This document shows positions 7,801-27,018 of a stretch of 32,000 nucleotides of DNA, piece after piece. The stretch covers positions 480,001 through 512,000 of the forward strand of contig NC_020304.1 in the NCBI RefSeq assembly GCF_000341395.1, given 5' to 3'. The stretch is from Desulfocapsa sulfexigens DSM 10523 (lineage in GTDB: Bacteria; Desulfobacterota; Desulfobulbia; Desulfobulbales; Desulfocapsaceae). A program made the position numbers and the translations under genes. How positions within the stretch are numbered: the first letter of the stretch is position 1; the number at the start of each line of letters is the position of its first letter. A model generated the notes under the pieces. The model saw nothing but the letters and a program-made list of their open reading frames with translations. It did no database searches and was not told the origin of the DNA.

Positions 7801-8688
7801 GTAAAGGATAGTGGGCGCATCGTTGATGCCCAGAACCTGCACCGGCACCATGGTGCTTTCCCGGTTTCCCTCTGCATCTTCCACCGTGTATTCAAATCCT
7901 GCCTGAGAACCGGAATAGTCCGCGTCGGGGGTGAAAACAATATCGCCGTTCTCGGTACTCATCAGGGTTCCGTGAGATGGTGCCCCAAGTCCAATAAAAC
8001 GGAGCTCTCCATCCCTGTCATGGTCATTGGCCATCAGGGCTGAGATGGTGGTGCTGACAGCCACCTCTTCATCGGTTATCAGGGTATCATCACCAAAATC
8101 GGTGGCATCATTTACGGAGAGGATATCAATATGGAGCCGGCCGGAAACCGCGGCGCCATGCGCATCCTCCGCTGTATAGTCAAGGGTGGCATCACCATGG
8201 TAATCGCCGTCCGGCGTGAAGGTATAGATCCCGTTTTCTTCAGTGACCACGCCACCGCTTATATTGGTGATGGCACCGATGGACGGGCTCTCACCGTCTC
8301 TGTCCTGAATAAACTGTTCGATGACGGCGGCATCGAAGACTATCGGTTGGTCTTCATTGGTGCTTATCGAGGTGCTTATGATTTCCGGAGCATCATTGAC
8401 AGCAGCAACATGTACCTGTACGAACGTGATTGACTGGTTACCGTCTGCGTCTGCAACCGTGTAGTCAAACCCTGCATCATTGCCGGAGTAATCCGGCTCC
8501 GGGACAAAGGTGATACTCCCATTTCCATCCTGAGAAACCGTGCCATGCAAACCATTCCCCAAAGCAACAAATTCGAGGGGCCCTTCAACATCAGAATCAT
8601 TGGCCAACAGCTCCGTAACCGTCGTTGTAACAGAAGTGTCCTCATCGGTGGTCAGGATGTCGGCCCCGAACACTGTTGCATCATCCAC
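4873..8688 (-). CDS. C-terminal portion of giant T1SS-type toxin/adhesin: cadherin-like repeats 7-15, a beta-rich domain, an EF-hand-like Ca-binding region and an acidic C-terminus
   Basis: 1271-aa ORF. It contains ~95-100-aa repeats with LLANDxDxDGDxL and VNDAP motifs. These are followed by LDLDGDGVELLG..GWVAADDGFLVYDHNHDGAVT..DSNNDGIF..DKNSNGISDEGE and an acidic tail ending DDVDDGALALAA. The stop lies 14 nt upstream of the hlyB-like start. Its frame stays open upstream of the listed GTG and continues the repeat pattern of ORF 8700..14366 (see the frameshift finding). Confidence 0.85.
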   Translation of the reverse strand: MDDATVFGADILTTDEDTSVTTTVTELLANDSDVEGPLEFVALGNGLHGTVSQDGNGSITFVPEPDYSGNDAGFDYTVADADGNQSITFVQVHVAAVNDAPEIISTSISTNEDQPIVFDAAVIEQFIQDRDGESPSIGAITNISGGVVTEENGIYTFTPDGDYHGDATLDYTAEDAHGAAVSGRLHIDILSVNDATDFGDDTLITDEEVAVSTTISALMANDHDRDGELRFIGLGAPSHGTLMSTENGDIVFTPDADYSGSQAGFEYTVEDAEGNRESTMVPVQVLGINDAPTILYDQRFINEDQAIVFTQQEMASFIDDPDGDQFTFTSLSAISGGSFSQDKGVYTYTPDADFYGSGQFSYTVSDGQGMEVTGSMTIHIAPVNDLPKMATTTATMTEDGEITFDSATLMAGASDIEDETDLRFMGISASTGGDGWLDENGLLHFLPDEDFFGIATLRYSVADTEAGIGTGLIVVNVLGENDIPQAMDDDHILAWSNNSYDNVYSSAVLLANDTDVDGDTLQITGFGNAEYGTVSQDVNGFIHYQATSDDWVGIDTLTYTITDGNGGESQATATIDVKLNTSPDAYSEILFSQEDIIAVFDQETLLANDTDVDGDTLFITGVGNATHGTVTLRGDGKIEFTPELNFNNNYPGQASFEYTVSDGISDPVSAVAFVDLDPVNDAPILVPERIEGAVEDNSFEFNAAQLIANDYDIEMDSVYESDSFSFTGVVGAAHGILSYDSGTGAIYYNPHANFCGVETFQYQVTDSFGAVSTGTSEIYVQPVNDNPVAQEDIASPAETHIWNKYSIAGLVANDFDVDGDSLTIVSPYVSSGSANVKVEGGYLWVQPSGGERHVEVSYTVSDGHGGTAPSRLIMNQIVEHNFAPELSIQSVDWSHDSYVNFYDVYFNIAVYDRNYGDTVTVSAAQVSHGTVYKNSNSSFYYHGVLQYGIPASFTLTGVDQRGASGTMYIQMWGGTEDAEPGYQNYTFRYLYSPVILDLDGDGVELLGIEEGVTFDWNRDTIAESSGWVAADDGFLVYDHNHDGAVTRADELMLKEYLPGATTDLEGLQAFDSNNDGIFSKEDAAWSDFGIWQDKNSNGISDEGEFKTLDDAGISDIELKSDGKEEVIAGNTVFGSTVYHLEDGSSAEVGDVALRGEELAFTEGLPAEESDAIPLAAGETQPIIQEEPEKECTETQDSASGDENTPHTEADQEISEAEINRIAQQLQSDAAAGSNFTDSAGNSTTEDIIVFDQFDDALQPDDVDDGALALAA

Positions 8689-10296
8689 GGATAAAATATC
8701 TATCTGCAGGGTACCGGTGACGATTCCGCCATTACCATCGCTTGCGTTGTAATCAAGGGAAGCGGCACCATGGTAGTTGGCGTGGGGGTAAAAGTATATA
8801 AACCGTTCTCTTCACTCACCACTCCGCCATTGACGTTTACGATACCCGTGAGGGTTACATTGTCTCCATCCACGTCCTGAAGAAAGCGTTCAATGGTTGA
8901 AGCATCAAAGGTGATGGCCTGATCTTCGTTTGTGGATAGAGTGTCTGTGAGGATCTCCGGAGCATCATTGCTTCCTGTCACCTCCACGCCGACAAAAGCA
9001 GTTGATTCAAGACCTTCATCATCCTTAATCGTGTAATTGAATCCGGCTTCGGCGCCAAAGTAGTTGGAGTTGGGGGTAAAAGTGATGTTGTTGTTCGCGT
9101 CAACTGAGACGCTCCCATGCTCAGCATCACCCACCGAGACAAAATGTACAGATCCTCCTTCCGGATCACTGTCGTTTGCCAGCAGATCTCCAACGGCAAT
9201 TAACAGCGGTGTTTCCTCCGTGGTCTGAAAACTGTCTGCACCCATGGCAACGGGATCATTGACCGGCAATATCTCAAACTCAAGGTGACCCTGCACCGTG
9301 CCCCGATGGCTGTCATTGGCCTGATAGTCAAACGATGCGATGCCGGAATATCCTGCTTCGGGGATAAACTTGAAGAAGCCGTTTTCTACAACAACACTGC
9401 CGTGCTCAATATTGGTGATGAAATCGAGATGCAACTGATCGCCATCGGCATCGCTTACAAACCTGGCAATCTCTTCCGGGCAGAAGGTGATGGGTTCGTC
9501 TTCGTTGATTGCGGGGTAGGTAGTGCTGCTTACCTGGGGCGCTTCCCGCTGGTCCAGGACTTCAATGGCGGCAAAGCCGGTGCTGAGATTGTCGGACTGA
9601 TCCGTGACGGTGTAAGAAAATCCCGCTTCGGTTCCCGCATAATCAGCATCCGGGATAAAGGTGACAGTACCGCTCGTATCCATGCTTACCTGGCCGTGTC
9701 TGGCACCATGGACCCCTGTCAACTGGATTGTTTCTCCGTCGTATTCGTGGTCATTGGCCAGGAGTTTGTCTACCGTGGTTGTCAGGGAGTGATCTTCGAG
9801 GATAATAAACCTGTCGTCGGTGGGTACTGGACCGAGATTTTCATCAAGTATGGTGAGGCTGGCCTCTCCCCTTTGCGGGTAGGTACCGTCGTGGGCCATA
9901 TAACTGAAATTCAGGGTTCCGGTGAAACCCTTTTCGGGAGTGAAGAGTAAACGGTTATTTATCTCAGTAATTGTCCCATGTTCAAGACCACGAAAATGAT
10001 CAAGGGTGATTGGATCGCCATCGGCATCGCTGTCATTGGTAAGCAGTTGATCCAGATAAAAGGAGTCTCCTTCATAAATGATGAAATGATCCGGGTTCAG
10101 TTCCGGCAGGTCGTTTTGATCTTCAACCACGATTAAGGCACGACGGGTGATGGTTTCTCCACTTGGGCCAAGTAAGGTGTATTCAAAGGAGGCCGTTCCT
10201 GCAAAGCCCTCGTCCGCCGCAAAACGCAGATCTCCATTAACATCTTCGTACAGTGTGCCGTGTTGTACGTTGCCGTAAGAAAGAAGGGTGTAGGAT
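6038..10296 (-). repeat. 15 tandem coding repeats (~95-100 codons each) of cadherin/Ig-like 'tandem-95'-type units, alternating between two subtypes
   Basis: Counted by eye from the translations. Subtype A reads (..TTDE....LLANDxDxDG..L.F...G..HG.V......I.FTP...Y.G...F.YTV.D..G......V.V...NDAP). Subtype B reads (EI......NEDQ.I.F......F..D.DGD............GG.V.E.NG.YTFTP...YHG...LDY.A.D..G..V.G.L.I.I..VNDAT). Confidence 0.7.
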
Positions 10297-13200
10297 TCTG
10301 CAGACGAACTGTACGATGTTTCCTGAACAAGGCTGCTTGCCAGAAAGCGAAGGCTTGAATCCTGCACCATGGAAAAGTAGACTCCCTGGCTGGTGCCTTC
10401 AGGAAGTGGAGGTGCTTCAAAACCGGAAGGCAGATCCGTCTCGCTTATCAGGATGTTATTGGTAAGGAGTACATCAACCGGTTTCTGGTCGGGATAAAAG
10501 TACTCGTAAAAATCGCTTGCGGATAATTCCTGCCACCACTCAGGGATATTGGAATAGGAAGTGGCGGGTAGTGCGGGTGCCTTTGCAAAGGAGAAACCGG
10601 ATACGCCGCTCTGTTCCGCAAAGGGATCGAAGGTGCTGCCAAGGCCGGGTAGCTGCGAAGAGAGGATCGCCTGCAGGTCTGTCTCGTCAGTGATAGGGGG
10701 AATAGTGTTACTGTCCGTGGGCTGCGCACTTTGCTGTTCGTAGGGGCCATTCCCGTTTGTCAGGTAACTTTCAAGGGCAGCCGCATCCAGCGGTTTTACA
10801 TAATCTATATTGGTTTCCGGGTGTTCTATCTGTCCATAAAAGGCAGAGGCACAGGCCTGATCGACATCAAGGCCCAAGCCCATGGCCAGCAGCAGCCCTG
10901 AAGCCCCTGCAAAGTTATGTTGCAGACTGACGGCAGAAAGGAGCTTTCCGACGGTTTGTGAGGGGCGTTGCTCCGGGGTCAGGGGCAGGGATTTGATATC
11001 CTTATCACCGGCGACAAAGTGCTGCCCCTGGGGGCCGTTGGCGTTGCCGCCTCCTGTAAACACACCGTTGCCGTAGGTAACCCCTACCCGGGGAGTCCAG
11101 GATTCCCCATAGGTATAGGTCATGCCCCGTTTCACAAAGCCCATGGCGGCAAGGCTCGCGTCTACCTTCGCAAAATCTATATTGCCGCTACTGTCACGGG
11201 CAAGTTTAATGGCATCGTCTACCCTGTCGCCACGGTCTCTTGCGTAGAGGGCACCGCGCATATCCAACCCTAAGCGTGATCTGTCAGCTACACTGATCAC
11301 TACTTTACCGCCATACTCAGAGGTGTATTTAATCTCCGGGTCTTTTCCTGCTTCCATGCGCAGGGATGGTAAACTACCATCGATGGTAACCCTGCCTCCC
11401 AATTCTTTGTATTTCTGGATTATGGCAATGAGTGGGGAGCCTGCTGCTCGCACGCTCTCTTTCATATCAGAATCGCCATGGACATCCATAATTACGTTGC
11501 CGTTTTCATCGAGGGCGAAGTCGGCTGTGGCTGAAGGGGGATCTTCGGTCATCAGCATATTGGCTATCTGAAGGACTGCTGCCGCTGCCCATCCCCAGGG
11601 GCCACAGGCCATTAGGACTGTGGTTGCAGCGGTGACCGCCGCACCCCTTACATCACCCATAGCTAGTTGGGCGCCTATGGCTAGGATGGACATAACGGGA
11701 ATGCTACCGGCGATACTGCCGGTGGTGCCCAGCAGACTGCCTACGCTGCCAAGGCCACCGCTGATGACACCTAAACCGTCTACAACACCCGCGATGGCAT
11801 TGTAGGTCATTATGGCGTTATTAACGGTACTGACAGTCTGATAGGCAATCCTGACAGCATCACCAGACTCCAGCACATCATCGAAGGAAGCGATGTTGCT
11901 GGCAAGGCCTATGGCTGAGCCTATGCCGCTCATGGTGTTTTCACCAAGGTTTATCGAATCAGAATACTGATCTATTCCACGTATAAGTTCAGTAGAAGAA
12001 CTGGCAATTCCCCAGCCGTCTCCGTCTTCAATGGCATCAGCCAAGGCAAATCCAGCGGAGGCGATATTGAGTGCGGTGGCCCCAGATCCGACACCTTCAG
12101 CGTCGAGAAAACCGCCGCCGTTTGCATCCATATAGCTTTCAATATCACGCAGAAGATCAATACTGTTGCCGGCAATTCCCCAGCCGTCTCCTTCATCTAC
12201 TGCCTGCCCGAATCCTATTCCGTGTTCGATGCCGTCTACTATGGCTTCGCTTCCATTGGATTCACTCAGAAACCCGTCACCTCCACCCGGCAGTGCATCG
12301 GCATAATCGTCAAGGCCGGATACAAACCCTGCACCTGTACGGGCCATATCCCAACCGTTTCCGGTGTTTATTGCGTCCCGTAGATCGCTCTCCGAGCTCA
12401 TGAGATTAAGAAATTCTTTATTTAAATCTGCTTGTGGAATTTGTTGTTCGGATTCTTCTGCTTCTGCTTCAGATTGAACTGTATCAGATTCTTCTTTAGT
12501 AACAGCTATCTGGTCTGTTTGGTTCTGAGAATAGGGTACTCCATCCGCTATAAGTAAATCTGGATTTTCCAGTTGCTGCAACCGTGTTTCGGCCTGCTCA
12601 AAGCTAATGTCAAGACGCTCAGCTACTCGACCAACAACCTCCTCATAGGATAGATTTGACGAGTCTTTATCAGAATGAGTCACATCATATACAACAACCT
12701 TGGCCTCAAATAACTCGATCATTAGCGGCAGATAAAGGATACCGTAAACTCCTAAACCATCTATACTTTCTTGGGGAAGATTGCCCAAATCTTCTAGAAG
12801 CTGTATATCAGCCTCGTGCAGTAGCGCCGCTTCATTTGGTTGGTTTTCTGCTTTCTCATAAGCGAAATCATGTGTCATGCAACACTTATCAACATCATCA
12901 ACTCCTTCTACCCATGGGTTTTCAGACGGTGGAGCATACTCCCTGCTCGTCCGCTCCCCAGCAAACCAACCTGGGCCGCAATACAACCCATAAGTTGGAA
13001 CAAGAATTTTCAAATAATCTGTAAATGTCGGATTAACCCAGTATTCAGTGTTGTCTTCTAACTCCGTTTGTGGTGGCTCCTCTTCAGAGCTTGATGTTCC
13101 ACTTTGATTGTTTCTGAGTAAATGCTCTGCAAATGAATCATCATTAGATGCAAGCAAAATTGGGTTTCCATCCGCATCGGTCATGGGGGTAGGCAAAGGG

Positions 13201-14366
13201 AATTCCCAATCTTCAGGTGGGATAACAATTTCATAACCAGCTTTAATCTGATCAGGATTATCTATTTCCAGGTTAAAAATGAGGATGTTTTCTACTGTGG
13301 TGTTATTGGCTTTTGCTAATTCAGAAAGGGTATCACCTGGCTGGATGGTGTAATTGTCAAAAGCTTGCGTTGTTTGCCCGGAGCTATTGCTGCCATGATA
13401 ATCTGTTTGCGGTGGGGGGGGATTCTCAATGTTATTATTTAAAGGTGTATCTCCTTTAGAGTCAATGACGGAGACTTTAATGTTGGAATCAGATTGATAG
13501 TCAATGGTGATTTTGTCATTGGGGTTGAAAGGAATTGTCTGTTGATTGTCATCTGTACCGATATAAACGATACCGCTGGCATCCTCCTTGTATTCAACAC
13601 TCCAATTGTTGTCTGGGTCGAGTATAATTGCTGGAGAGCCATCATCATGGTATAACACTTCAGCTTTGGGGTTATCCTGGATATTGGTGAACCGTATTCC
13701 ATCGGAACCCTCCAGTTGCGTGATGATATGTCCCTGTTGCCGCAGAGAATCGACAACTTCCAGATTGCTTTCCAATGGCAGGTCACTGGTCAGGGTACCA
13801 GAGGTCATGTTGAAGGTTATTGTTTCGGGAGATGACGGGAGCGCGTCTGTTGTGTCTTCATGCCCTCTATCTTTAATCTCAGTCACTTTACCCCAAGTCC
13901 AATCCACACCGGTGTTAACGAGGCTACCGGCAACAATACCGACCAGCGGTGCAATGGGTGCAAGCGGTGTACTGCCCACTGCTCCTGTCACAACAATTTG
14001 CGCGACAGTCCCGGCTGTACTCGATAAAGTTGCCTGCATTATCCCTTCCTCTTTGGCACTGATGGCAATATCCAGAATTGCGCCGGGACCTGCACTGTTA
14101 AGATGAAGGAGCAACTTGCCACCGACAGGTAATGAGCCTCCAGCTTCAGCCAGTGTTTGTTCCATGGCTGTCTGTACTCGATCACGTGCGAGAGCGGTAA
14201 ATACTGCTGGACCGGGAAGAAGATCAGAGAGGTCCCCTGTTTCCATTTCCAAACCATGACAACCAGTTATATCAACAGCATATTCTGAAGCATTGATTTT
14301 GGTTATCTCAGCCTGGGGCAAAACATCAGGTGATTCTGTGGTATCTGTTTTATGATCTTCATTCAT
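8700..14366 (-). CDS. N-terminal portion of the same giant toxin: LysM, phospholipase-A2-like head, shared ~600-aa core and cadherin-like repeats 1-6
   Basis: 1888-aa ORF. LysM: YTIQPGDTLSELAKANNTTVENILIFNLEIDNPDQIKAGYEIVIP. PLA2-type signature: YGLYCGPGW...VDKCCMTHDFAYEKA. The core is shared with ORF 17890..20457. Repeats follow with VNDAP and LLANDxD motifs. The ORF ends in out-of-frame sequence after a C5 run. Confidence 0.85.
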   Translation of the reverse strand: MNEDHKTDTTESPDVLPQAEITKINASEYAVDITGCHGLEMETGDLSDLLPGPAVFTALARDRVQTAMEQTLAEAGGSLPVGGKLLLHLNSAGPGAILDIAISAKEEGIMQATLSSTAGTVAQIVVTGAVGSTPLAPIAPLVGIVAGSLVNTGVDWTWGKVTEIKDRGHEDTTDALPSSPETITFNMTSGTLTSDLPLESNLEVVDSLRQQGHIITQLEGSDGIRFTNIQDNPKAEVLYHDDGSPAIILDPDNNWSVEYKEDASGIVYIGTDDNQQTIPFNPNDKITIDYQSDSNIKVSVIDSKGDTPLNNNIENPPPPQTDYHGSNSSGQTTQAFDNYTIQPGDTLSELAKANNTTVENILIFNLEIDNPDQIKAGYEIVIPPEDWEFPLPTPMTDADGNPILLASNDDSFAEHLLRNNQSGTSSSEEEPPQTELEDNTEYWVNPTFTDYLKILVPTYGLYCGPGWFAGERTSREYAPPSENPWVEGVDDVDKCCMTHDFAYEKAENQPNEAALLHEADIQLLEDLGNLPQESIDGLGVYGILYLPLMIELFEAKVVVYDVTHSDKDSSNLSYEEVVGRVAERLDISFEQAETRLQQLENPDLLIADGVPYSQNQTDQIAVTKEESDTVQSEAEAEESEQQIPQADLNKEFLNLMSSESDLRDAINTGNGWDMARTGAGFVSGLDDYADALPGGGDGFLSESNGSEAIVDGIEHGIGFGQAVDEGDGWGIAGNSIDLLRDIESYMDANGGGFLDAEGVGSGATALNIASAGFALADAIEDGDGWGIASSSTELIRGIDQYSDSINLGENTMSGIGSAIGLASNIASFDDVLESGDAVRIAYQTVSTVNNAIMTYNAIAGVVDGLGVISGGLGSVGSLLGTTGSIAGSIPVMSILAIGAQLAMGDVRGAAVTAATTVLMACGPWGWAAAAVLQIANMLMTEDPPSATADFALDENGNVIMDVHGDSDMKESVRAAGSPLIAIIQKYKELGGRVTIDGSLPSLRMEAGKDPEIKYTSEYGGKVVISVADRSRLGLDMRGALYARDRGDRVDDAIKLARDSSGNIDFAKVDASLAAMGFVKRGMTYTYGESWTPRVGVTYGNGVFTGGGNANGPQGQHFVAGDKDIKSLPLTPEQRPSQTVGKLLSAVSLQHNFAGASGLLLAMGLGLDVDQACASAFYGQIEHPETNIDYVKPLDAAALESYLTNGNGPYEQQSAQPTDSNTIPPITDETDLQAILSSQLPGLGSTFDPFAEQSGVSGFSFAKAPALPATSYSNIPEWWQELSASDFYEYFYPDQKPVDVLLTNNILISETDLPSGFEAPPLPEGTSQGVYFSMVQDSSLRFLASSLVQETSYSSSAESYTLLSYGNVQHGTLYEDVNGDLRFAADEGFAGTASFEYTLLGPSGETITRRALIVVEDQNDLPELNPDHFIIYEGDSFYLDQLLTNDSDADGDPITLDHFRGLEHGTITEINNRLLFTPEKGFTGTLNFSYMAHDGTYPQRGEASLTILDENLGPVPTDDRFIILEDHSLTTTVDKLLANDHEYDGETIQLTGVHGARHGQVSMDTSGTVTFIPDADYAGTEAGFSYTVTDQSDNLSTGFAAIEVLDQREAPQVSSTTYPAINEDEPITFCPEEIARFVSDADGDQLHLDFITNIEHGSVVVENGFFKFIPEAGYSGIASFDYQANDSHRGTVQGHLEFEILPVNDPVAMGADSFQTTEETPLLIAVGDLLANDSDPEGGSVHFVSVGDAEHGSVSVDANNNITFTPNSNYFGAEAGFNYTIKDDEGLESTAFVGVEVTGSNDAPEILTDTLSTNEDQAITFDASTIERFLQDVDGDNVTLTGIVNVNGGVVSEENGLYTFTPTPTTMVPLPLITTQAMVMAESSPVPCR
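10592..12410 (-). repeat. Shared toxin core, copy 1 (direct repeat of 17892..19665)
   Basis: Nucleotide alignment by eye at a constant +7300 offset over the 3' ~1 kb. It includes perfect-identity blocks at 10879..11057 and 11224..11371. The ORF track lists identical 64-aa antisense ORFs at 10882..11076 and 18182..18376. Confidence 0.9.
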
Positions 14367-14378
14367 AATTCATCCCCA

Positions 14379-15521: not shown

Positions 15522-15673
15522 AAAAATTCCATACCGTATAATTTCCTGCTCCTACTGACTCTTTTATGCTTTTAGTAGTGTATGCCTTTGGTAAAAACAC
15601 ACGATTTATTATTGACCAGAAAGTTGCCCCAACAATCAGAGAGGCTATGACGAAGCTGGTGCTGTCACGAACT

Positions 15674-16837: not shown

Positions 16838-17535
16838 ATTGAGAGTATCCCCTCAAGCTGCTCCCCGGTTACTGCAGAATGTCCAACGAGTGTTATGTCC
16901 ACACCAATTATCCGTTTATTATTCATATCTTGATCTCGTTCTCCATAAATCCCACAGGCAAACACCCTACCCGATAATTGCACGTTTGCCACCTACCAGA
17001 ACGGGTAGGTTTTATGCTTTTTCTGCCTTTTTTTATAAGAAAATCAGATTATGCTTAACAGCCAGAGCTAGAGCATGGGAAGGACTGTAAACACCAATTC
17101 TTTTCATCATTAAAATCCAGGTAAACTTCCGAATACGCAATACTATTCTCCCTGAATCCCACCAATGCTGAAGCAATAATCTTTACCGACTCTTCATATT
17201 CACAACCACTTATCAGTTGCCACAGCAACACGATTACAAAAAAATGAGACAGATCTTTTCAAAAACTTTTAAAATCTCCTGAACCCCTCAAAATCATTTA
17301 TAGGGACAGGATATTTTAAAAGAAGAGAAAATATCAACACCATCAATGCGAAAGGTAATATACAAGTTATCTCGCAATTTACTATCCGTAAATATACCTA
17401 TTTTTCAATATAAACAGAAACTAATCCATACTGGTTGAAATGTATCATTGCAATCATTATTGGCTCAAAATCAACTCTAACTAATATAAAGGCAAATTGT
17501 TTATTGCGGCAGGCTGAAAGCACAGGCTAAGCGGA

Positions 17536-17712
17536 CCTTCAACATCAGAATCATTGGCCAACAGCTCCGTAACTGTCGTTGTAACAGAAGTGTCCTCATC
17601 GGTGGTCAGGATGTCAGATCCAAAAACTGTCGCATTATCCACGGATAAAATATCTATCTGCAGGGTACCGGTGACGCTTCCGCCATTACCATCGCTTGCG
17701 CTGTAATTAAGG
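17536..17712 (-). pseudogene. Relic fragment of toxin cadherin-like repeats 6/7 (copy A)
   Basis: About 90% identical by eye to 8582..8758 of the main gene. It translates as LNYSASDGNGGSVTGTLQIDILSVDNATVFGSDILTTDEDTSVTTTVTELLANDSDVEGPL. There is an in-frame TAG upstream and no start codon. Homology is lost on both sides. Confidence 0.85.
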
Positions 17713-17720
17713 CAGCGACA

Positions 17721-17882
17721 GGGGTCTCCTTTTGACCTTTCTCTTCGATCGAGTAGCGAAAGCTAAGGGCAACCATTTAGTTTGCCAACTAATTTCCAAT
17801 GTAGCCAAGAGAAAAAAATAACTAAAGAACAGAGATTTCAGTTTGATTTAATACCACAAAGGTCAAAGGGAGATTTGACCCC
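17721..17882. repeat. 162-bp element bounded by imperfect terminal inverted repeats, ending in a terminator-like hairpin (copy A)
   Basis: The left end is GGGGTCTCCTTTTGACCTTT. The right end is AAAGGTCAAAGGGAGATTTGACCCC, whose reverse complement is GGGGTCAAATCTCCCTTTGACCTTT. The right end also folds on itself (GGTCAAA/TTTGACC) and is followed by CCTTTTT on the plus strand. Confidence 0.6.
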
Positions 17883-17889
17883 TTTTTCA

Positions 17890-20457
17890 TTAGAAACCGG
17901 ATACACCGCTCTGATCTGCAAAGGGATCGAAGGTGCTGCCAAGGCCGGGGATCTGCGAAGAGAGGATCGCCTGCAGGTCTGCCTCATCAGTGATTGGGGG
18001 AATACTGTTACTGTCCGTGGACTGCGCACCTTGCTGTTCATAGGGGCCATTCCCGTTTGTCAGGTAACGTTCAAGGGCAGCAGCATCCAGAGGTTTTACA
18101 TAGTCTGGATTGGTTTCCGGGTGTTCTATCTGTCCATAAAAGGCAGAGGCACAGGCCTGATCCACATCAAGGCCCAGTCCCATGGCCAGCAGCAGCCCTG
18201 AAGCCCCTGCAAAGTTATGTTGCAGACTGACGGCAGAAAGGAGCTTTCCGACGGTTTGTGAGGGGCGTTGCTCCGGGGTCAGGGGCAGGGATTTGATATC
18301 CTTATCACCGGCGACAAAGTGCTGCCCCTGGGGGCCGTTGGCGTTGCCGCCTCCTGTGAATACTCCGTTGCCGTAAGTGAATCCTATGCGAGGAGTCCAG
18401 GATTCCCCGTAGGTATAGGTCATGCCCCGTTTGCTAAAGCCCATGGCAGCTAGTGCTGCATCCACTTTAGCAAAATTTATATTCCCGTTGCTGTCTCTTG
18501 CAGTTTTAATAGCATCATCAACTCTGTCGCCACGGTCTCTTGCGTAGAGGGCACCGCGCATATCCAACCCTAAGCGTGATCTGTCAGCTACACTGATCAC
18601 TACTTTACCGCCATACTCAGAGGTGTATTTAATCTCCGGGTCTTTTCCTGCTTCCATGCGCAGGGATGGTAGACTACCATCGATGGTAACCCTGCCTCCT
18701 AGCTTTTTATAATTCTGGATGATGGCAACGAGAGGGGAAGCTGCTGCTTGCACGCTGTCCTTCATATCCGAATCGCCATGGACATCCATGATTACGTTGC
18801 CGTTTTCATCGAGGGCGAAGTCGGCTGTGGCTGAGGGGGGATCATCTCCCCCTGCTACAAGATTGACGATCTGGATTGCGGCAGCTACTGCCCAGCCATA
18901 TACGGGAATACAGAGTGCAGCAGTTGTTAATGCAGTAACAGCAGCACCTCTTACATCGCCCATAGCTAGCTGTGTACCTATGGCAATAATAGATATTATG
19001 GGGATGTTGCTGGCAATGGCATTAGTGCTGCCCACAATTGCATTGTAGACACCAATGGCATTGTTGACGGTACTGGCAGTGGTGTAGGCAATATTCAGGG
19101 CATCACCCGATTCCAGTACATCATCAAAGGAGGCTATATTAGCGGCAAGGCCAATGGCTGAGCCAACTCCAGCAAGAGTTTCACCGCCTACGCCGATACC
19201 TCCCTCAACATAGTTATCTACCCCTTGTAACAGTGAGGTTGTGGAACTGGCTATCCCCCAGCCATCCCCGTCTTCAATAGCCTCAGCTAAAGCAAGACCG
19301 GAGGAGGCGATAGTAAGTGCGGTGGCTCCTGATCCAACTCCTTCAACGTCAAAAAAACCGCCGCCGTTTGCATCCAGATACCCTTCTATATCACGCAGAA
19401 GATCAATACTGTTTCCGGCAATCTCCCAACCATCACCATCATCTATGGCCTGGCCGAGGCCGATACCGTGTTCGATGCCGTTGAGTATTGCTTCTCCAGA
19501 TTGTTCCAGGAATCCGTCTTCAGTCGCAGGGTTGTTATCATTCAAGAAAACATCGTTACGATTATCTAAACTGGAGAGATAGCCAGCACCTTCACGAGCG
19601 ATGTCCAAGCCATCACCAGAATTGATTGCATCACGAAGAGCTATTTGAGAACTCATCAGATCCAGTTCGGCTTCTCGTTCTACGGCTGCTTGCTGTATAA
19701 TTGCCCTCATTTCTTCTTGGCTTACATTGAAGGCTGAAGAAACAAACTCATTCTGCTGTTCACTGTCCCATGATGCAAATTCTTTGGCTGATATTTCTCC
19801 TAGTTCCGGGTAGCGTGACAACATCTCATTATACAATTCTTCAGAGCTATGAGCGGTTAAGAGACGAAGCAAAGAAACACTGCTGTCTATGATAACGCTT
19901 CCCCCAAGGTGTTCACCACCTGAATGATGGACTAGATCTGAGTCTCCATTGATATTATAGAAATCAGGATCCTGTTCGTCTGCCTCCCCGATACCTGGTA
20001 CGTTGAATGCGCCTCCAGTTATTGAAACAGAATTACTATATTTTTCTTTTAGAAAAGTTGTTACCACCTGTGCAAGATGACCACCCAGTGAATGTCCGGT
20101 TACATGTAATGTATCTATCCCTTCGGATTTAATTATCAGGTCAGCAAGCTCCTTTGCACTACCTTGTTGCGGAGGCTTTCCACCCAACCACAAGAGTGCA
20201 TCATCATCCAGGTCATCGATACCGTTGGTACCTGTATATGCGATTACAACTTCACCTTCCGGTGATCTGAATACCTGTGCTTCAAAGCCGTTGGTTGGTG
20301 GTTCAATATTATCGTTTTTGAAGAATTCACTACTGTGCCCAAGGTGTTCCCAACCATCTGATGACATTTCCTGCCAGAGTTTGGACTCGGCCAGTTTATC
20401 TGTACTTTCGTAGCTTAAAATGCTTAAAGCCAGATCATTTTTTATTGTAATAGCCAT
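17890..20457 (-). CDS. Class-3 lipase (alpha/beta hydrolase) head fused to the shared toxin core; lacks repeats and the C-terminal export region
   Basis: 855 aa. Lipase signature: FEAQVFRSPEGEVVIAYTGTNG...LHVTGHSLGGHLAQ. From about LMSSQIALRDAINSGDG to the C-terminus it is homologous to residues ~650-1255 of ORF 8700..14366. The stop falls exactly where that homology ends (SGVSGF*). Confidence 0.85.
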   Translation of the reverse strand: MAITIKNDLALSILSYESTDKLAESKLWQEMSSDGWEHLGHSSEFFKNDNIEPPTNGFEAQVFRSPEGEVVIAYTGTNGIDDLDDDALLWLGGKPPQQGSAKELADLIIKSEGIDTLHVTGHSLGGHLAQVVTTFLKEKYSNSVSITGGAFNVPGIGEADEQDPDFYNINGDSDLVHHSGGEHLGGSVIIDSSVSLLRLLTAHSSEELYNEMLSRYPELGEISAKEFASWDSEQQNEFVSSAFNVSQEEMRAIIQQAAVEREAELDLMSSQIALRDAINSGDGLDIAREGAGYLSSLDNRNDVFLNDNNPATEDGFLEQSGEAILNGIEHGIGLGQAIDDGDGWEIAGNSIDLLRDIEGYLDANGGGFFDVEGVGSGATALTIASSGLALAEAIEDGDGWGIASSTTSLLQGVDNYVEGGIGVGGETLAGVGSAIGLAANIASFDDVLESGDALNIAYTTASTVNNAIGVYNAIVGSTNAIASNIPIISIIAIGTQLAMGDVRGAAVTALTTAALCIPVYGWAVAAAIQIVNLVAGGDDPPSATADFALDENGNVIMDVHGDSDMKDSVQAAASPLVAIIQNYKKLGGRVTIDGSLPSLRMEAGKDPEIKYTSEYGGKVVISVADRSRLGLDMRGALYARDRGDRVDDAIKTARDSNGNINFAKVDAALAAMGFSKRGMTYTYGESWTPRIGFTYGNGVFTGGGNANGPQGQHFVAGDKDIKSLPLTPEQRPSQTVGKLLSAVSLQHNFAGASGLLLAMGLGLDVDQACASAFYGQIEHPETNPDYVKPLDAAALERYLTNGNGPYEQQGAQSTDSNSIPPITDEADLQAILSSQIPGLGSTFDPFADQSGVSGF
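17892..19665 (-). repeat. Shared toxin core, copy 2 (direct repeat of 10592..12410)
   Basis: See copy 1. Perfect-identity blocks lie at 18179..18357 and 18524..18671. Confidence 0.9.
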
Positions 20458-20471
20458 AAGTTATTACCTGT

Positions 20472-21641
20472 TCAACGCAAGTCATGTACTTCCATTATCC
20501 AAATTTCATCTTTATGATTATATGCAATCTGATTTTTATTAACTGGATTTTGCAGACCGTCAAAAGCCCATCCTTTAGGAAACTTGTAACGATCTATCCG
20601 TTTGCCATCTTTTCTATCCCAGATGTCCAGTGTGCGTTTGTTTGTTAATGCAATGACATATTGTTCATTATCGAGAAAACCCAGCATTATTGGAGAGGTA
20701 TCCATCGGACCGATGGTTTCAACTATTTCATGCGTTTCAACATCAAAAAGTTTCATCGATTGGTGGTATATTCTATAACTGACATCCTTGTCCGTCGCAT
20801 TGGATCCATACAAAAAATAACTGCTATCTGAGGTCCAGGCAAAGGATGCCGGCGGGCCAAAGGCAACGTCTTTTAATTGTTTTTTTAATACAATTTCAGG
20901 ATATTGCCATATTCGAAGATATGAGTGCACATCACCTTTTTTACCCCTGACTCCTATTTTCCCGAAATCCATCCAGGCATCAACCATATATTTCCCATCT
21001 GGGCTAATGGATACTTTTTCGGGATTTTCATAAGCCTCTAAGTACCCACTTTGTTTCATGTCGGGGACAGTATAAAAATAAATTTTTGGTTCTTTATTAC
21101 CCCTCAATGAAAGAAAATGCCAAGAATACAAACGATTATCAGGAGTTGCGTACAGTCGGTTTCCAGTAGGAAAAAGAGGCATTTCATCTGAATAAAGCGA
21201 ATAATTATTCCCAACATCCCAAACTCGAAGCTTATGCTGCCCCTTCACAACTTGAGATTGACCAATTAGATATTTACCATCTGTTGAGTAGGCTAGATAC
21301 GACGAGAAAAGCTTATAATCTTTGACTAGGGTTTTGATCAATTGATGTTTTTTGATATCAAAAACAAACACCTTATCATGTACCTCAGATGTACAGGCAA
21401 GAAACCTGCCTGAAGGGTGAATAGTCATATCATCACAAGAATGGCCAGTTTCGCATTTCATAACCGCCATTCTACGTATATGTTTTGTGTCCATATTGCT
21501 TATCCCTCCACTACAACCACTAAGTACAACAAGCGCTGCAAAAAAATACATCGAAACAAGAGTTAGCTTAAAGCTACACTTCCCGTACGACAAGACTGAC
21601 CCTACGAGTATCTTATGCCCCATGATCCGATTATTGTTCAT
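20472..21641 (-). CDS. WD40/PD40-like beta-propeller lipoprotein
   Basis: The ORF track gives 20472..21707 with a GTG start. I prefer the ATG at 21641 (MNNNRIMGHK...), which is conserved in leader copy A. Lipobox LVVLSGC. Propeller-type motifs: HPSGRFLACTS, STDGKYLIGQS, ISPDGKYMVDAW. Its stop lies 14 nt upstream of the lipase ORF ATG. There is no obvious sequence similarity to the 387-aa propeller. Confidence 0.75.
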   Translation of the reverse strand: MNNNRIMGHKILVGSVLSYGKCSFKLTLVSMYFFAALVVLSGCSGGISNMDTKHIRRMAVMKCETGHSCDDMTIHPSGRFLACTSEVHDKVFVFDIKKHQLIKTLVKDYKLFSSYLAYSTDGKYLIGQSQVVKGQHKLRVWDVGNNYSLYSDEMPLFPTGNRLYATPDNRLYSWHFLSLRGNKEPKIYFYTVPDMKQSGYLEAYENPEKVSISPDGKYMVDAWMDFGKIGVRGKKGDVHSYLRIWQYPEIVLKKQLKDVAFGPPASFAWTSDSSYFLYGSNATDKDVSYRIYHQSMKLFDVETHEIVETIGPMDTSPIMLGFLDNEQYVIALTNKRTLDIWDRKDGKRIDRYKFPKGWAFDGLQNPVNKNQIAYNHKDEIWIMEVHDLR

Positions 21642-22248
21642 ATCTTGATCTCGTTCTCCATAAATTCCACAGGCAAACACCCTACCCGATAATTGCACGT
21701 TTGCCACCTACCCGAACGGGTAGGTTTTATGCTTTTTCTGCCTTTTTTTATAAGAAAATCAGATTCTGCTTAACAGCCGGGCTAGAGCATGGGAAGGACT
21801 GCGAACACCAATTTTTTTCATCACTAAATTCAGGCACAGTTCCGAAAACACAACACTATCCCCCTGAGTTCCACCAATGCTGGAACAATAATCTTGATCG
21901 GCTGTTCATTTTCACAAACACTCATCAGTTGCCACAGCAACAAAAGTAACAAAAAAATGAGACAGATCTTTTCAAAAACTTTTAAAATCTCCTGAACCGC
22001 TCAAAATCATTTATAGGGACAGGATATTTTAAAAGAAGAGAAAAGAACAACACCATCAATGCGAAAGGGAATATACAAGTTATCTCGCAATTTACTATCC
22101 GTAAATATACCTATTTTTCAATATAAACAGAAACTAATCCATCTTGGTTAAAATGTGTCATTGCAATCATTATTGGCTCAAAATCAACTCTAACTAATAT
22201 AAAGGCAAATTGTTTATTGCGGCAGGCTGAAAGCACAGGCTAAGCGGA

Positions 22249-22425
22249 CCTTCAACATCAGAATCGTTGGCCAACAAGGCAGTAACCGTCGTTGTAACAG
22301 AAGTGTCCTCATCGGTGGTCAGGATGTCAGCTCCAAAAACTGTCGCATTATCCACGGATAAAATATCTATCTGCAGGGTACCGGTGACGCTTCCGCCATT
22401 ACCATCGCTTGCGCTGTAATTAAGG
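22249..22425 (-). pseudogene. Relic fragment of toxin cadherin-like repeats 6/7 (copy B)
   Basis: Homologous to 8582..8758 and 17536..17712, with the same break points. Confidence 0.85.
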
Positions 22426-22433
22426 CAGCGACA

Positions 22434-22606
22434 GGGGTCTCCTTTTAACCTTTCTCTTCGATCGAGTAGCGAAAGCTAAGGGCAACCATTTAGTTTGCCA
22501 ACTAATTTCCAATGTAGCCAAGAGAAAAAAATAACTAAAGAACAGAGATTTCAGTTTGATTTAATACCACAAATTCGCCACAAAGGTCAAAGGGAGATTT
22601 GACCCC
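22434..22606. repeat. Inverted-repeat-bounded element, copy B (173 bp)
   Basis: Same sequence as 17721..17882. The left arm has one change (CCTTTTAACC). Here it lies 72 nt downstream of the DUF2156 gene stop. Confidence 0.6.
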
Positions 22607-22678
22607 TTTTTCGCCTAACGGAAAGCGCCTGCTCTTGCAGTATTTTGACGCGCACTTAGACTACCGCGATAATATTGG

Positions 22679-24789: not shown

Positions 24790-24946
24790 ACACTCTCACA
24801 CTGAAAAATTAAAATACCCTCGATGTTTACCCAAAAAGGGCAGCGAACAATACATTCAAGATGGCCCTGTGATCTATCCCTGTGACTTGTCACAAGACTA
24901 ACGACCTAAAAGGATGACACATGCAGATACCTGGCTTCAGAGCCCA

Positions 24947-25609: not shown

Positions 25610-25791
25610 CTATTTTACCTTGTCGTATTCGATACATAATGAGTAGAGGCCGTTAGAAAGTCGACAAAACACACAAAACATACAGAGATTATGGTATCTG
25701 CTTGATTGCCACATTTTTCAATCTGAATGCAATGATTTACGATAAACATATGTTTTATCACCAAAAAAAAACCATCGGAGTAGAAGAAACC

Positions 25792-26819: not shown

Positions 26820-27018
26820 TTCAATAGCTCCTTGTTTACAATTTCTCTTTGATCTTTCTGGCTTCTGCGTTTTCTTTTCTTACTTCCCACCCTCGGGAAC
26901 CGCCACCAAGCACCTGTTAATACTTTACATTTTAATCACTAGTTCACATCAACAACCAAAACAAAGGCGTCACCCATTAAAACACTATCGTGTCCATGAA
27001 CTTCACCGATGCGGCACC

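What the first reader, a model, noticed from the sequence alone, without database searches (positions are those of the whole stretch)
8582..22612. Mirror-image polymorphic-toxin locus: alternative N-terminal lipase heads stacked upstream of one T1SS-exported body
Seen in sequence: (i) The giant gene (14366 down to 4873) has a PLA2/LysM head, a ~606-aa core, 15 cadherin-like repeats and an acidic C-terminus. It is followed directly by hlyB-hlyD-hlyC-tolC homologues. (ii) About 7.3 kb upstream, in the same orientation, ORF 17890..20457 has a different head (class-3 lipase, HVTGHSLGGHLAQ) on the same core. Its stop sits at the base where homology to the main gene ends (..FDPFADQSGVSGF* versus ..FDPFAEQSGVSGFSFAKAP..). 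It therefore has no repeats and no C-terminal export region. (iii) Each head is preceded at 12-14 nt by its own unrelated lipoprotein or membrane-protein gene(s) and by the same ~1-kb leader. Inference: the two cores are 1.8-kb direct repeats, so one crossover would delete ~7.3 kb. That would place the lipase head and its cognate lipoprotein on the exported body, giving a head-swapping switch. Established knowledge: CdiA, Rhs and MafB polymorphic toxins vary the C-terminal tip and keep orphan tips downstream. T1SS substrates carry their secretion signal at the C-terminus, so a T1SS version would need the variable end and the orphan array inverted, which is the geometry here. I am not aware of a described HlyC/T1SS-linked system organised this way.
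Basis: partly seen in the sequence, partly recalled or inferred. Interest (0 to 1): 0.88.

Follow-up and report, generated by a model that had tools for sequence, protein, structure and literature searches.

The report
Upstream spare heads for exported toxin
A sulfur bacterium carries a giant exported protein whose lipase-like front end comes in interchangeable versions, with a displaced spare version and its partner gene parked just upstream. This is the mirror image of how known bacterial "polymorphic toxins" store their spare tips.

Summary
The window is from Desulfocapsa sulfexigens DSM 10523. It has a ~3,160-codon gene followed by hlyB-hlyD-hlyC-tolC. Upstream lies an 855-aa ORF with a different lipase head on the same ~610-aa core (76% aa identity), and it stops where homology ends. 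Each head follows its own lipoprotein gene and a shared ~1-kb leader.

Two corrections apply. As deposited, the giant gene is split by a 1-nt frameshift (C5 run; close relatives have C6). The PLA2 call rests on a motif only.

Comparative data support the polymorphic-toxin reading. The core family is rare (42 cluster representatives). Full-length relatives carry at least four head types on the same core and body. In the sister MAG Desulfocapsa sp. MC-05, the "orphan" head and its lipoprotein sit on the exported body. Seven of nine loci with readable upstream sequence hold truncated heads or body fragments. Lipoproteins co-vary with head type.

I read the orphan as a displaced former main cassette, as with Rhs/CdiA orphans but with polarity inverted. 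Crossover between the cores is feasible (179-nt identical tract, in frame). Nothing indicates a programmed switch. Toxicity, immunity and export remain untested.

The parts
1..846 (-). 5' part of a TolC-type outer-membrane factor gene. It starts at ATG 846, overlaps the hlyC end and runs off the window.
   Evidence: Translation shows a signal peptide and a TolC-like N-terminus. The orthologous position in relatives is a 455-aa PF02321 OEP gene.
821..1366 (-). hlyC-family toxin-activating lysine acyltransferase (181 aa)
   Evidence: Pfam HlyC E 4.4e-37. NCBI name.
1369..2763 (-). HlyD-family T1SS membrane-fusion protein (464 aa)
   Evidence: TIGR01843 E 5.6e-112. Pfam HlyD_3.
2714..4858 (-). 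HlyB-type T1SS ABC transporter with an N-terminal C39-like domain (714 aa)
   Evidence: TIGR01846 E 2e-257. Peptidase_C39, ABC_membrane and ABC_tran.
4873..8688 (-). Downstream ORF of the giant gene (1271 aa): 9 cadherin-like repeats, an SPM-like Ca-binding domain and an acidic C-terminal tail (presumed T1SS signal).
   Evidence: 73% identical to the C-terminal 1235 aa of the uninterrupted MC-05 protein.
5215..5712 (-). Homologue of the FrpC self-processing module. It starts at Pro but is preceded by Ser, not Asp.
   Evidence: PDB 6sjw E 2.7e-25, with the alignment starting at PVILDLDGDG.
8784..8788 (-). C5 homopolymer where the giant gene changes frame. Relatives have C6.
8700..14366 (-). Upstream ORF of the giant gene (1888 aa): head, core and the first 5-6 cadherin-like repeats.
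12459..14366 (-). Head of the main gene (aa 1-636). It has a Gly/Ala-rich hydrophobic N-domain, LysM (13218-13352) and a PLA2-like motif region (12780-12968).
   Evidence: LysM E 5e-11. PLA2 matches are sub-threshold. The N-domain is 30% identical to the head of P0019.
10593..12458 (-). Core, main copy (aa 637-1258)
   Evidence: 76% aa identity to the orphan core. The family search gave 42 representatives.
14379..15521 (-). 380-aa Zn-ribbon membrane protein, 12 nt upstream of the main head.
   Evidence: A 26% identical relative sits upstream of the cassette in L007.
15674..16837 (-). 387-aa PD40/TolB-like beta-propeller lipoprotein (lipobox LGGC).
16904..17888 (-). Leader copy 2. It comprises a hairpin at 17861-17880, a cadherin-repeat fragment at 17530-17725, a conserved AT-rich ~330-nt element and a proximal element with hairpin.
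17530..17725 (-). Fragment of giant-gene body inside leader 2, 93% identical to 8576-8770.
17890..20457 (-). Orphan ORF (855 aa): lipase/phospholipase-like head (19717-20457) plus a full core (17893-19716). It has no repeats and no C-terminal export region.
   Evidence: 74% identical over its whole length to aa 1-856 of the full-length MC-05 protein.
20472..21707 (-). WD40-like beta-propeller lipoprotein (lipobox LSGC; the true start is probably internal), 14 nt upstream of the orphan head.
   Evidence: 60% identical to the lipoprotein upstream of the MC-05 giant gene. Homologues always precede this head type.
21619..22612 (-). Leader copy 1, with a cadherin fragment at 22243-22438.
26978..27368 (-). 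Third, diverged copy of the AT-rich leader element, upstream of a separate operon of small lipoproteins.

Best explanation
Shown:
- The locus encodes a member of a rare family of giant proteins built as variable N-terminal lipase/phospholipase-like head, then a conserved ~610-aa core, then a cadherin-like stalk, then an FrpC-SPM-like Ca-binding domain, then an acidic C-terminal tail.
- The core begins at the motif AELDLM...L(R/E)DAIxSGDG and contains a conserved hydrophobic helix pair.
- The gene is followed by hlyB-hlyD-hlyC-tolC.
- Each head is encoded directly downstream of a head-type-specific lipoprotein gene, so [lipoprotein + head] forms a cassette.
- In D. sulfexigens the lipase cassette that occupies the main position in sister MAG MC-05 now sits upstream as an intact but export-less ORF. 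It is cut exactly at the core/body boundary. A second cassette (PD40 lipoprotein + membrane protein + LysM/PLA2-like head), with its own copy of the leader, is joined to the body.

Inferred:
- The protein is exported C-terminus first by the T1SS and acylated by HlyC.
- The core inserts into a target membrane and delivers the head, CyaA-like. The targets are neighbouring bacteria.
- The lipoproteins are periplasm-facing immunity proteins, as Tli proteins are for Tle lipases.
- New cassettes arrive by homologous recombination, using the core/body as the downstream arm. They push the resident cassette upstream, and it is then truncated at a variable point.
- The orphan is kept because its lipoprotein still protects against kin that use the old head, and it serves as a reservoir. 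RecA-type crossover between the two cores would delete 7.3 kb and re-arm the lipase head, as shown experimentally for Rhs orphans. This would be rare and one-way, not a programmed switch.
For: - Source and family rarity.
- At least four head types on one core and body in full-length relatives of 2,463-3,133 aa: Mbeg1/Lipase_3-like, two Tle1-like DUF2235 subtypes, a GHSKGG hydrolase, and LysM heads.
- Sharp head/core boundary motif.
- MC-05 has a 405-aa lipoprotein (60% identical to the 411-aa one) and a 2734-aa protein. Its aa 1-856 are 74% identical to the orphan and the rest is 70-73% identical to the window's body. hlyBDC follows.
- Upstream orphans or remnants are seen in 7 of the 9 loci with readable upstream sequence. 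L003 and L015 show none.
  - The window itself.
  - L004: two orphans, one 95% identical to the first 554 aa of the main gene.
  - L002, L006 and L007.
  - L001 and L016, which carry body fragments only.
- Lipoprotein/head co-variation:
  - head 80% with partner 60%;
  - head 36% with partner 26%;
  - head 38% with partner 37-38%;
  - head 57% with partner remnant 36-41%.
- Identity profile: the orphan 5' core is closer to MC-05 (71-93% against 50-74% for the main copy). The two 3' cores are 88-100% identical to each other but 72-85% to MC-05.
- Recombination substrate: perfect tracts of 179 and 148 nt in the same codon phase.
- The orphan ORF is intact. Omega is 0.15 against MC-05 and 0.16 between the two 3' cores, with dS 0.26.
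- T1SS and HlyC genes.
- Precedent for orphan re-arming by recombination: PMC3967940. The displacement model for effector/immunity arrays (PMC5361080) is known from the listing only; I did not read it.
Against: - No experimental or read-level data show export, acylation, toxicity, protection or recombination.
- The deposited main gene is frameshifted, so the system may be inactive in this strain. It may equally be a homopolymer sequencing error.
- The core has no recognisable fold or family. The AF2 model has pLDDT 56 and Foldseek found nothing, so 'translocation module' is analogy only.
- Classical RTX nonapeptides are absent.
- The low omega between the two cores could have accrued while both were main copies in different strains. 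It does not prove selection on the orphan.
- The lipoproteins have no match to known immunity families. FrpD shows that an upstream lipoprotein can instead be a binding partner of an RTX protein's N-terminus (PMC5233953 abstract).
- Several comparison loci are short, error-prone metagenome contigs.
Confidence: 0.6

Rival explanations
1. Inert relic. The orphan and its leader are debris of a tandem duplication or insertion. The cassette has no present role, neither immunity nor reservoir, and will decay.
For: - Other loci show clearly decaying remnants: a 149-aa head stub and 81-aa partner stub in L002, a ~90-aa stub in L007, and frameshifted pieces in L006 and L016.
- The leaders themselves contain a dead cadherin fragment.
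- An orphan stop at the homology end needs no selection, since a stop soon after a breakpoint is expected by chance.
Against: - The 2.5-kb orphan ORF and its lipoprotein gene are both intact although the repeat copies have diverged (dS 0.26), with omega 0.15-0.16.
- It keeps a full leader copy and a terminator-like hairpin.
- Retained orphan immunity genes are reported for other effector/immunity arrays (PMC5361080, abstract listing only).
Confidence: 0.15
2. Not an interbacterial toxin. The giant protein is a surface adhesin or lipid-scavenging exoenzyme. The upstream lipoproteins are FrpD-like outer-membrane partners that bind or anchor the N-terminal head, or chaperone it, rather than immunity proteins.
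For: - The C-terminal region is homologous to the FrpC self-processing module.
[quoted passage not shown] That frpD lies directly upstream of frpC is from my own knowledge, not checked here.
- The body is a cadherin-like stalk typical of T1SS adhesins.
- Head-specific co-variation fits any specific binder.
Against: - Turnover of enzymatically different heads, with retained orphan cassettes, is the hallmark of conflict systems rather than adhesins.
- Several heads are Tle1-like. From my knowledge of the T6SS literature, that family is best known as an antibacterial effector with lipoprotein immunity.
- A HlyC acyltransferase points to membrane insertion.
- The Asp-Pro bond needed for FrpC-type clip-and-link is absent.
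Confidence: 0.15
3. Programmed head-swapping switch. The locus flips between heads at appreciable frequency as a regulated diversity generator.
For: Direct repeats 7.3 kb apart with long identical, in-phase tracts, and a duplicated leader.
Against: - No recombinase gene, no inverted repeats and no recognisable att-like sites.
- A deletion is irreversible and would also discard the PLA2-type cassette together with its lipoprotein and membrane-protein genes.
- Orphan breakpoints differ from locus to locus: early core, core end, or inside the body. That fits sporadic recombination rather than a defined mechanism.
Confidence: 0.05
4. Ordinary paralogy. The 855-aa protein is an independent enzyme with its own route out of the cell, or an intracellular role.
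For: It is an intact ORF with its own leader and partner gene. Several database members are of similar length (P0007, P0009, P0011).
Against: - It has no N-terminal signal peptide and no C-terminal T1SS region.
- Its closest relatives (MC-05, P0006, L015) continue into or belong to full-length proteins.
- P0007 is the front half of a frameshifted giant gene (L007).
- P0009 and P0011 share an identical tail and look like truncated array members.
Confidence: 0.05

Closest known systems
Rhs and CdiA polymorphic toxins with orphan toxin/immunity cassettes (PMC3150448 from the listing; PMC3967940; Zhang et al. 2012, PMC3482391)
   Same: - A conserved delivery region carries a sharply demarcated variable toxic tip.
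- A tip-specific partner gene lies next to the tip-coding end.
- Truncated spare tip+partner cassettes beside the main gene keep a piece of the conserved region as a recombination arm.
- Re-arming by homologous recombination is geometrically possible.
   Different: - Polarity is inverted. The tip is N-terminal, the partner gene is upstream, and the orphans are upstream and keep downstream (core/body) homology.
- Export genes are T1SS plus HlyC, not T5SS or T6SS.
- This orphan has its own start codon and leader, whereas Rhs orphans lack initiation and export signals.
- The boundary motif is AELDLM...DAIxSGDG, not VENN or PxxxxDPxGL.
- Function is untested.
Bordetella CyaA (bifunctional RTX toxin; own knowledge plus abstracts)
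   Same: An N-terminal enzyme domain is carried by a C-terminally exported T1SS protein with a hydrophobic segment and a dedicated HlyC-family acyltransferase. This gives a plausible model for how a core could deliver an N-terminal head.
   Different: - There is no sequence similarity.
- There are no nonapeptide RTX repeats.
- The stalk is cadherin-like.
- The heads are polymorphic and paired with lipoproteins.
- The presumed targets are bacteria.
MARTX toxins (effector-domain mosaics shaped by recombination; own knowledge, Satchell 2011 as cited in PMC12419801)
   Same: Giant T1SS toxins with an rtxC/hlyC-type acyltransferase and exchangeable enzymatic modules.
   Different: - MARTX effectors are internal, flanked by glycine-rich repeats, and released by a cysteine protease domain.
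- No such domains were found here.
- MARTX loci have no adjacent immunity genes or orphan arrays.
Neisseria FrpC/FrpD (PMC7078468, PMC5233953)
   Same: A homologous SPM-type Ca-binding domain sits near the C-terminus (E 2.7e-25). [quoted passage not shown]
   Different: The scissile Asp-Pro is Ser/Thr/Met-Pro in this family. FrpC has RTX nonapeptides and neither polymorphic heads nor HlyC.
T6SS Tle lipase effectors with Tli immunity lipoproteins (own knowledge; Pfam PF09994)
   Same: Relatives' heads match the Tle1-like catalytic domain. The window's orphan head has a GxSxG lipase motif. The partners are lipoproteins, as expected for protection of the periplasmic face.
   Different: The heads are fused to a T1SS carrier rather than delivered by VgrG/PAAR. 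The partners show no similarity to any annotated family.
Min-Wnt/Lipocone domains fused N-terminally to RTX-like repeats (PMC12419801)
   Same: This is a published note that polymorphic-toxin-type domains can sit N-terminal to a T1SS export region.
   Different: It is a single sentence about a different toxin domain. No core, no upstream immunity genes and no orphan arrays are described.

Membership tests
Polymorphic toxin systems (CdiA/Rhs/MafB type) | Conserved trafficking region joined to a variable toxin tip at a sharp boundary | tested here: met
   The same core and body carry at least four head types. The boundary motif is AELDLM..DAIxSGDG.
Polymorphic toxin systems (CdiA/Rhs/MafB type) | Tip-specific partner gene adjacent to the tip-coding end, co-varying with the tip | tested here: met
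   Gaps of 12-14 nt. Partner homology tracks head type in three head classes across independent loci.
Polymorphic toxin systems (CdiA/Rhs/MafB type) | Partner protein neutralises the toxin; the toxin inhibits neighbouring cells | not testable with these tools
   Needs expression and competition assays.
Polymorphic toxin systems (CdiA/Rhs/MafB type) | Orphan tip+immunity cassettes beside the main gene | tested here: met
   Window, L004, L002, L006 and L007, plus body fragments in L001 and L016.
Polymorphic toxin systems (CdiA/Rhs/MafB type) | Variable tip at the C-terminus, with immunity gene and orphans downstream | tested here: not met
   The tip is N-terminal, and the partner gene and orphans are upstream.
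RTX / T1SS substrates | Adjacent ABC transporter, membrane-fusion protein and outer-membrane factor | tested here: met
   HlyB TIGR01846 E 2e-257, HlyD TIGR01843 E 5.6e-112, and a TolC/OEP gene.
RTX / T1SS substrates | GGxGxDxUx nonapeptide beta-roll repeats | tested here: not met
   No HemolysinCabind hit and no GGxGxD string. DxDxDG loops of the SPM-like domain are present instead.
RTX / T1SS substrates | Uncleaved C-terminal secretion signal | tested here: inconclusive
   The tail is acidic and conserved, with EAEINRIAQQLQSD...ALALAA shared across the family. No predictive model is available.
Acylated RTX toxins (HlyA/CyaA class) | Dedicated HlyC-family acyltransferase in the operon | tested here: met
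   Pfam HlyC E 4.4e-37.
Acylated RTX toxins (HlyA/CyaA class) | Sequence homology of the pore-forming or acylated segments | tested here: not met
   No PDB or Pfam similarity for the core. The fold search was empty.
MARTX toxins | Cysteine protease domain and A/B/C glycine-rich repeats flanking internal effectors | tested here: not met
   No such Pfam hits in either giant ORF.
FrpC-type clip-and-link proteins | Self-processing module | tested here: met
   6sjw E 2.7e-25 over 166 aa.
FrpC-type clip-and-link proteins | Asp-Pro scissile bond at the start of the module | tested here: not met
   The window has Ser-Pro. Relatives have Ser/Thr/Met-Pro.
Tle1-like (DUF2235) T6SS phospholipase effectors | PF09994 catalytic domain | tested here: not met
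   Absent from both window heads. Present in relatives' heads: P0002-4, P0010, P0023 and L004.
Class-3 / Mbeg1-like lipases | Alpha/beta-hydrolase fold with a GxSxG nucleophile elbow | tested here: met
   GHSLGG in the orphan head. Lipase_3 E 2.7e-5 at 24.5 bits against a 22-bit cut-off. Precomputed PF26363 Phospholipase-like.
Secreted phospholipase A2 | Ca loop (YxGxG) plus CCxxHD catalytic motif within a PLA2 fold | tested here: inconclusive
   The motifs YCGPG and CCMTHD are present. Pfam scores are below the cut-offs. PDB hits are at E 0.014 or weaker. The single-sequence AF2 model has pLDDT below 50 over the motif. No homologues were retrieved.

The most novel reading that the evidence does not exclude
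This is the first recognised polymorphic toxin system built on a type I secretion system. It would be a HlyC-acylated carrier whose conserved core translocates interchangeable N-terminal phospholipases into rival Gram-negative cells. Cognate lipoprotein immunity genes and arrays of displaced heads lie upstream, and homologous recombination with the core can re-arm them. It would be a mirror image of the CdiA/Rhs design, imposed by the C-terminal export signal.
Probability: 0.35. Interest if true: 0.85.

Novelty: new variant of a known kind. Interest (0 to 1): 0.78.

Why it matters
All described polymorphic toxin systems place the variable toxin at the C-terminus and store spares downstream. 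This family suggests that the position of the export signal dictates locus geometry. When the signal is C-terminal, as in T1SS, the whole design flips.

It would add T1SS to the routes used for interbacterial polymorphic toxins. It would also give a natural set of head/lipoprotein pairs in which to test lipase immunity. The unknown ~610-aa core becomes a candidate new translocation module. The family is found in anaerobic sediment Desulfobacterota, where bacterial warfare is little studied.

Tried and rejected
- AF2 on the C-terminal half of the core with a 13-sequence alignment gave mean pLDDT 56, confident only for residues 12-157. Foldseek against the PDB found nothing at E<=0.001, so the core fold remains unknown.
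- phmmer of the orphan against the PDB found nothing.
- The PLA2 region gave no support beyond the motif. The word-indexed homologue search returned nothing. The single-sequence AF2 model was too poor over the motif to search with.
- Rfam found nothing meaningful on the leader. RNA folding of the conserved AT-rich element gave z = -1.9, which is marginal.
- The sigma-70/terminator scan of the locus was not above shuffled expectation, apart from the repeated hairpins.
- No inverted repeats of 30 nt or longer were found, which rejects an invertible-segment model.
- The search for related loci failed with the 13-sequence alignment. A 5-sequence alignment worked, but only 2 genome loci and 3 metagenome loci were confirmed.
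- P0002 could not be located by exact look-up. It was later recovered as L006.
- The Logan contig carrying the exact 380-aa protein (L014) breaks at both repeats, so it says nothing about rearrangements.
- I considered dN/dS as proof of selection on the orphan and rejected it as decisive. The two cores may have diverged while both were functional in different strains.
- Seven literature searches, of which five looked for a prior description, plus two look-ups inside papers found no description of this family or geometry.

Full report
**Source and layout.**
The 855-aa ORF is 100% identical to a protein of Desulfocapsa sulfexigens DSM 10523, on a 3.99-Mb contig. All relevant genes are on the minus strand. 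In the direction of transcription the order is as follows.
- Leader 1 (22612-21619).
- A 411-aa WD40-like lipoprotein gene (21707-20472).
- The 855-aa ORF (20457-17890).
- Leader 2 (17888-16904).
- A 387-aa PD40/TolB-like lipoprotein gene (16837-15674).
- A 380-aa Zn-ribbon membrane protein gene (15521-14379).
- The giant gene (14366-4873).
- hlyB (4858-2714), hlyD (2763-1369) and hlyC (1366-821).
- A tolC-type gene starting at 846 and leaving the window.

Family assignments are strong for the export genes. HlyB matches TIGR01846 at E 2e-257 and has a C39-like domain. HlyD matches TIGR01843 at E 5.6e-112. HlyC matches the Pfam model at E 4.4e-37. An OEP gene occupies the orthologous position in relatives.

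**Checking the observation.**
The two-heads-one-core observation is correct. Giant aa 637-1258 align with orphan aa 248-855 at 76% identity (E = 0). The alignment ends at ...SGVSGF, immediately before the orphan's stop, while the giant continues SFAKAP.... At DNA level the homology ends at 10592/17892.

The orphan head carries HVTGHSLGGHLAQ. It matches Lipase_3 (24.5 bits, cut-off 22) and the newer 'Phospholipase-like' PF26363.

The main head has a clear LysM domain. Its PLA2 signature (YCGPG...CCMTHD) is motif-level only, with all profile and PDB matches below threshold.

The gaps between partner genes and heads are 12 and 14 nt. The ~1-kb leader is duplicated at 83-97% identity.

The stalk has 14-15 cadherin-like 'tandem-95' repeats. 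The last 120 residues are strongly acidic.

First, the giant gene is two ORFs in different frames, and GenBank annotates them as UWK_00405 and UWK_00404. The break is a C5 run at 8784-8788. Two relatives 91-93% identical there (L005, L009) have C6 and read through, as does MC-05. This is either a homopolymer sequencing error or a genuine slip that inactivates the strain's system.

Second, each leader contains a ~195-nt fragment of giant-gene body. Positions 17530-17725 and 22243-22438 are 91-93% identical to 8576-8770.

**The family.**
An exhaustive profile-free search with the core found only 42 cluster representatives among 1.84 billion. Full-length members (2,463-3,133 aa) share core, cadherin stalk and tail but carry different heads:
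- Mbeg1/Lipase_3-like hydrolases;
- two subtypes of T6SS Tle1-like (DUF2235) phospholipase domains;
- a 'GHSKGG' hydrolase;
- LysM-containing heads.

The head/core junction is sharp. Unrelated sequence gives way to the motif AELDLM-x5-L(R/E)DAIxSGDG.

The core then has Gly/Asp-rich helical repeats and a conserved hydrophobic helix pair. Next comes an alpha/beta region for which AF2 gives a partly confident model with no structural neighbour.

Near the C-terminus there is a homologue of the FrpC self-processing module (PDB 6sjw, E 2.7e-25). The residue before its first Pro is Ser/Thr/Met rather than the Asp required for clip-and-link cleavage (PMC7078468 abstract). Classical GGxGxD nonapeptides are absent.

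**The decisive comparison.**
In the MAG Desulfocapsa sp. MC-05 (L003) there is a single cassette. A 405-aa lipoprotein, 60% identical to the window's 411-aa one, is followed by a 2,734-aa protein. Its first 856 residues are 74% identical to the entire orphan (head 80%). The rest is 70-73% identical to the window's body. hlyB-hlyD-hlyC follow. The orphan's head therefore does sit on the exported body in a sister species.

Sliding-window identities show the orphan's 5' core is closer to MC-05 (71-93%) than the main copy is (50-74%). The 3' halves of the two window cores are 88-100% identical to each other but only 72-85% to MC-05.

The simplest history is that the lipase cassette was the resident main cassette. 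A LysM/PLA2-type cassette then arrived with its own leader and partner genes and recombined within the 3' core or body. The resident cassette was left upstream, cut at the core/body boundary. The TAA stop lies in the 4-nt joint (TAAT) between the end of core homology and the leader's first conserved bases.

**Generality.**
Among the nine loci with readable upstream sequence, seven show upstream remnants.
- The window itself, as described above.
- L004 (Thermodesulfobacteriota bacterium B35). A 423-aa lipoprotein gene is followed by a 553-aa ORF 95% identical to the start of the main gene and truncated ~50 aa into the core. Next come a 476-aa secreted-protein gene and a 595-aa GHSKGG head fused to a remnant of the core end. 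Last come a 422-aa lipoprotein gene and the 2,802-aa main gene with hlyBDC.
- L002. Stubs of a 476-like partner and a GHSKGG head lie upstream of a 183-aa lipoprotein gene and a Tle1-like head.
- L006. A Tle1-like head with core and ~135 aa of body is followed by a new 479-aa lipoprotein gene and another head.
- L007. A relative of the 380-aa gene and a ~90-aa head stub lie upstream of the cassette.
- L001 and L016. Body fragments lie directly upstream of a cassette.
- L003 and L015 show no orphan.

Breakpoints vary between early core, core end and inside the stalk. This explains the cadherin fragment in the window's leaders as the stub of an older orphan.

Partner genes track head type:
- WD40-like lipoproteins go with the Lipase_3/PF26363 head in five loci;
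- the 385/422/423-aa family goes with one Tle1 subtype;
- the 476-aa family goes with the GHSKGG head.

**Mechanism.**
What is shown is the architecture, the export-gene context, head polymorphism, partner co-variation, upstream orphans, and a feasible in-frame crossover. The crossover could use perfect tracts of 179 and 148 nt in the same codon phase.

The rest is inferred by analogy.
- C-terminus-first export by the T1SS. That the secretion sequence is C-terminal is stated in the abstracts of PMC4648471 and PMC5018854.
- HlyC-dependent acylation.
- Membrane insertion of the core with delivery of the N-terminal head, as in CyaA.
- Periplasm-facing lipoproteins acting as immunity, as in Tle/Tli.
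- Bacterial targets, as suggested by the LysM and Tle1-like heads.

For orphans the best precedent is Rhs in Salmonella. There, recombination between the main gene and a downstream orphan arms the orphan toxin under selection (PMC3967940). The displacement model for T6SS effector/immunity arrays (PMC5361080) is a second precedent, known here only from its abstract listing.

**The 'switch'.**
The crossover would be a one-way 7.3-kb deletion. It would also discard the current cassette together with its lipoprotein and membrane-protein genes. There are no recombinase genes and no inverted repeats. Breakpoints are not conserved between loci. I therefore treat re-arming as a possible rare, selectable event rather than a programmed switch.

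The orphan ORF is intact and shows omega of about 0.15. That constraint may predate its displacement.

**Rivals.**
- The orphan is a pure relic.
- The system is an adhesin or exoenzyme whose lipoproteins are FrpD-like binders of the N-terminus (PMC5233953 abstract).
- The locus is a programmed switch.
- The 855-aa protein is an independent paralogue.

The second rival is the most serious, because the SPM homology links this family to FrpC. However, turnover of catalytic heads with retained cassettes fits conflict systems better.

**Novelty.**
Five literature searches and two look-ups inside papers found no description of a T1SS/HlyC-linked polymorphic toxin with N-terminal tips and upstream orphans. 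The nearest is one sentence noting Min-Wnt toxin domains N-terminal to RTX-like repeats (PMC12419801). I class this as a new variant of a known kind (polymorphic toxin systems). It is of high interest but entirely computational, and the main gene is possibly inactive in this particular strain.

Noticed in passing
window 28263-28336 (+), with 28393-29205 (+) and 29499-30347 (+): A c-di-GMP-I riboswitch (69 bits, E 1.3e-14) lies directly upstream of a PEP-CTERM/CBM96 protein gene, followed by a rhomboid-family protease gene.
   Followed up: partly
window 17147-17480, 21859-22195, 26978-27368 (all minus-strand sense): A ~330-nt AT-rich element is conserved at about 85-97% in three same-orientation copies, each upstream of a lipoprotein-led operon. 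It has no Rfam match, the RNA fold z is -1.9, and blastn does not detect it in the MC-05 locus. It may be a regulatory region or an RNA of unknown kind.
   Followed up: partly
window 8784-8788: The giant gene is frameshifted at a C5 run. Relatives L005 and L009 have C6. Giant genes are also split in other assemblies: L007 as 829 + 2025 aa, and L006.
   Followed up: yes
window 5215-5712 (-): A homologue of the FrpC self-processing ('clip-and-link', NeissLock) module has Ser-Pro instead of the essential Asp-Pro. This holds across the whole family. It may be a non-cleaving, Ca-triggered folding domain replacing RTX repeats.
   Followed up: partly
window 17530-17725 and 22243-22438; L001 3-209; L016 2-904: Dead fragments of cadherin-stalk coding sequence sit upstream of cassettes. 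The window's copies are 91-93% identical to its own gene at 8576-8770, which begins a few bases downstream of the frameshift site, but only about 80% identical to MC-05.
   Followed up: yes
window 16904-17117 and 21619-21831; L003 2196-2343 and 6537-6637: The proximal leader element has a GC hairpin (ACCTACC..GGTAGGT) and a short shared ORF start (MANVQLSGRVFACGIYGERDQDMNN). It also occurs twice in MC-05, upstream of two different lipoprotein genes. The annotated GTG start of the 411-aa ORF is probably spurious.
   Followed up: partly
window 22679-23557 (-): A gene for a lysyl-phosphatidylglycerol-synthase C-terminal-domain protein (LPG_synthase_C, E 3.4e-47) abuts leader 1. This is a lipid-modifying function next to a phospholipase locus. 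No homologous DNA was seen in the MC-05 locus.
   Followed up: no
window 24133-26819 (-): A run of four small genes (133, 186, 220 and 218 aa) encodes proteins with signal-peptide- or lipoprotein-like N-termini and no Pfam match. Three are syntenic with MC-05. They could be unrelated, or further stand-alone protection genes.
   Followed up: partly
L015 612-1145: A RelB/ParE toxin-antitoxin pair lies immediately upstream of a lipoprotein + lipase-head cassette in a sediment metagenome contig.
   Followed up: no
Proteins P0010, P0013, P0016, P0018, P0023, P0024, P0032: A subset of family members has a ~170-aa insertion (ATRGCDGRIID...) after the hydrophobic helix pair of the core. This suggests two core subtypes.
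   Followed up: no
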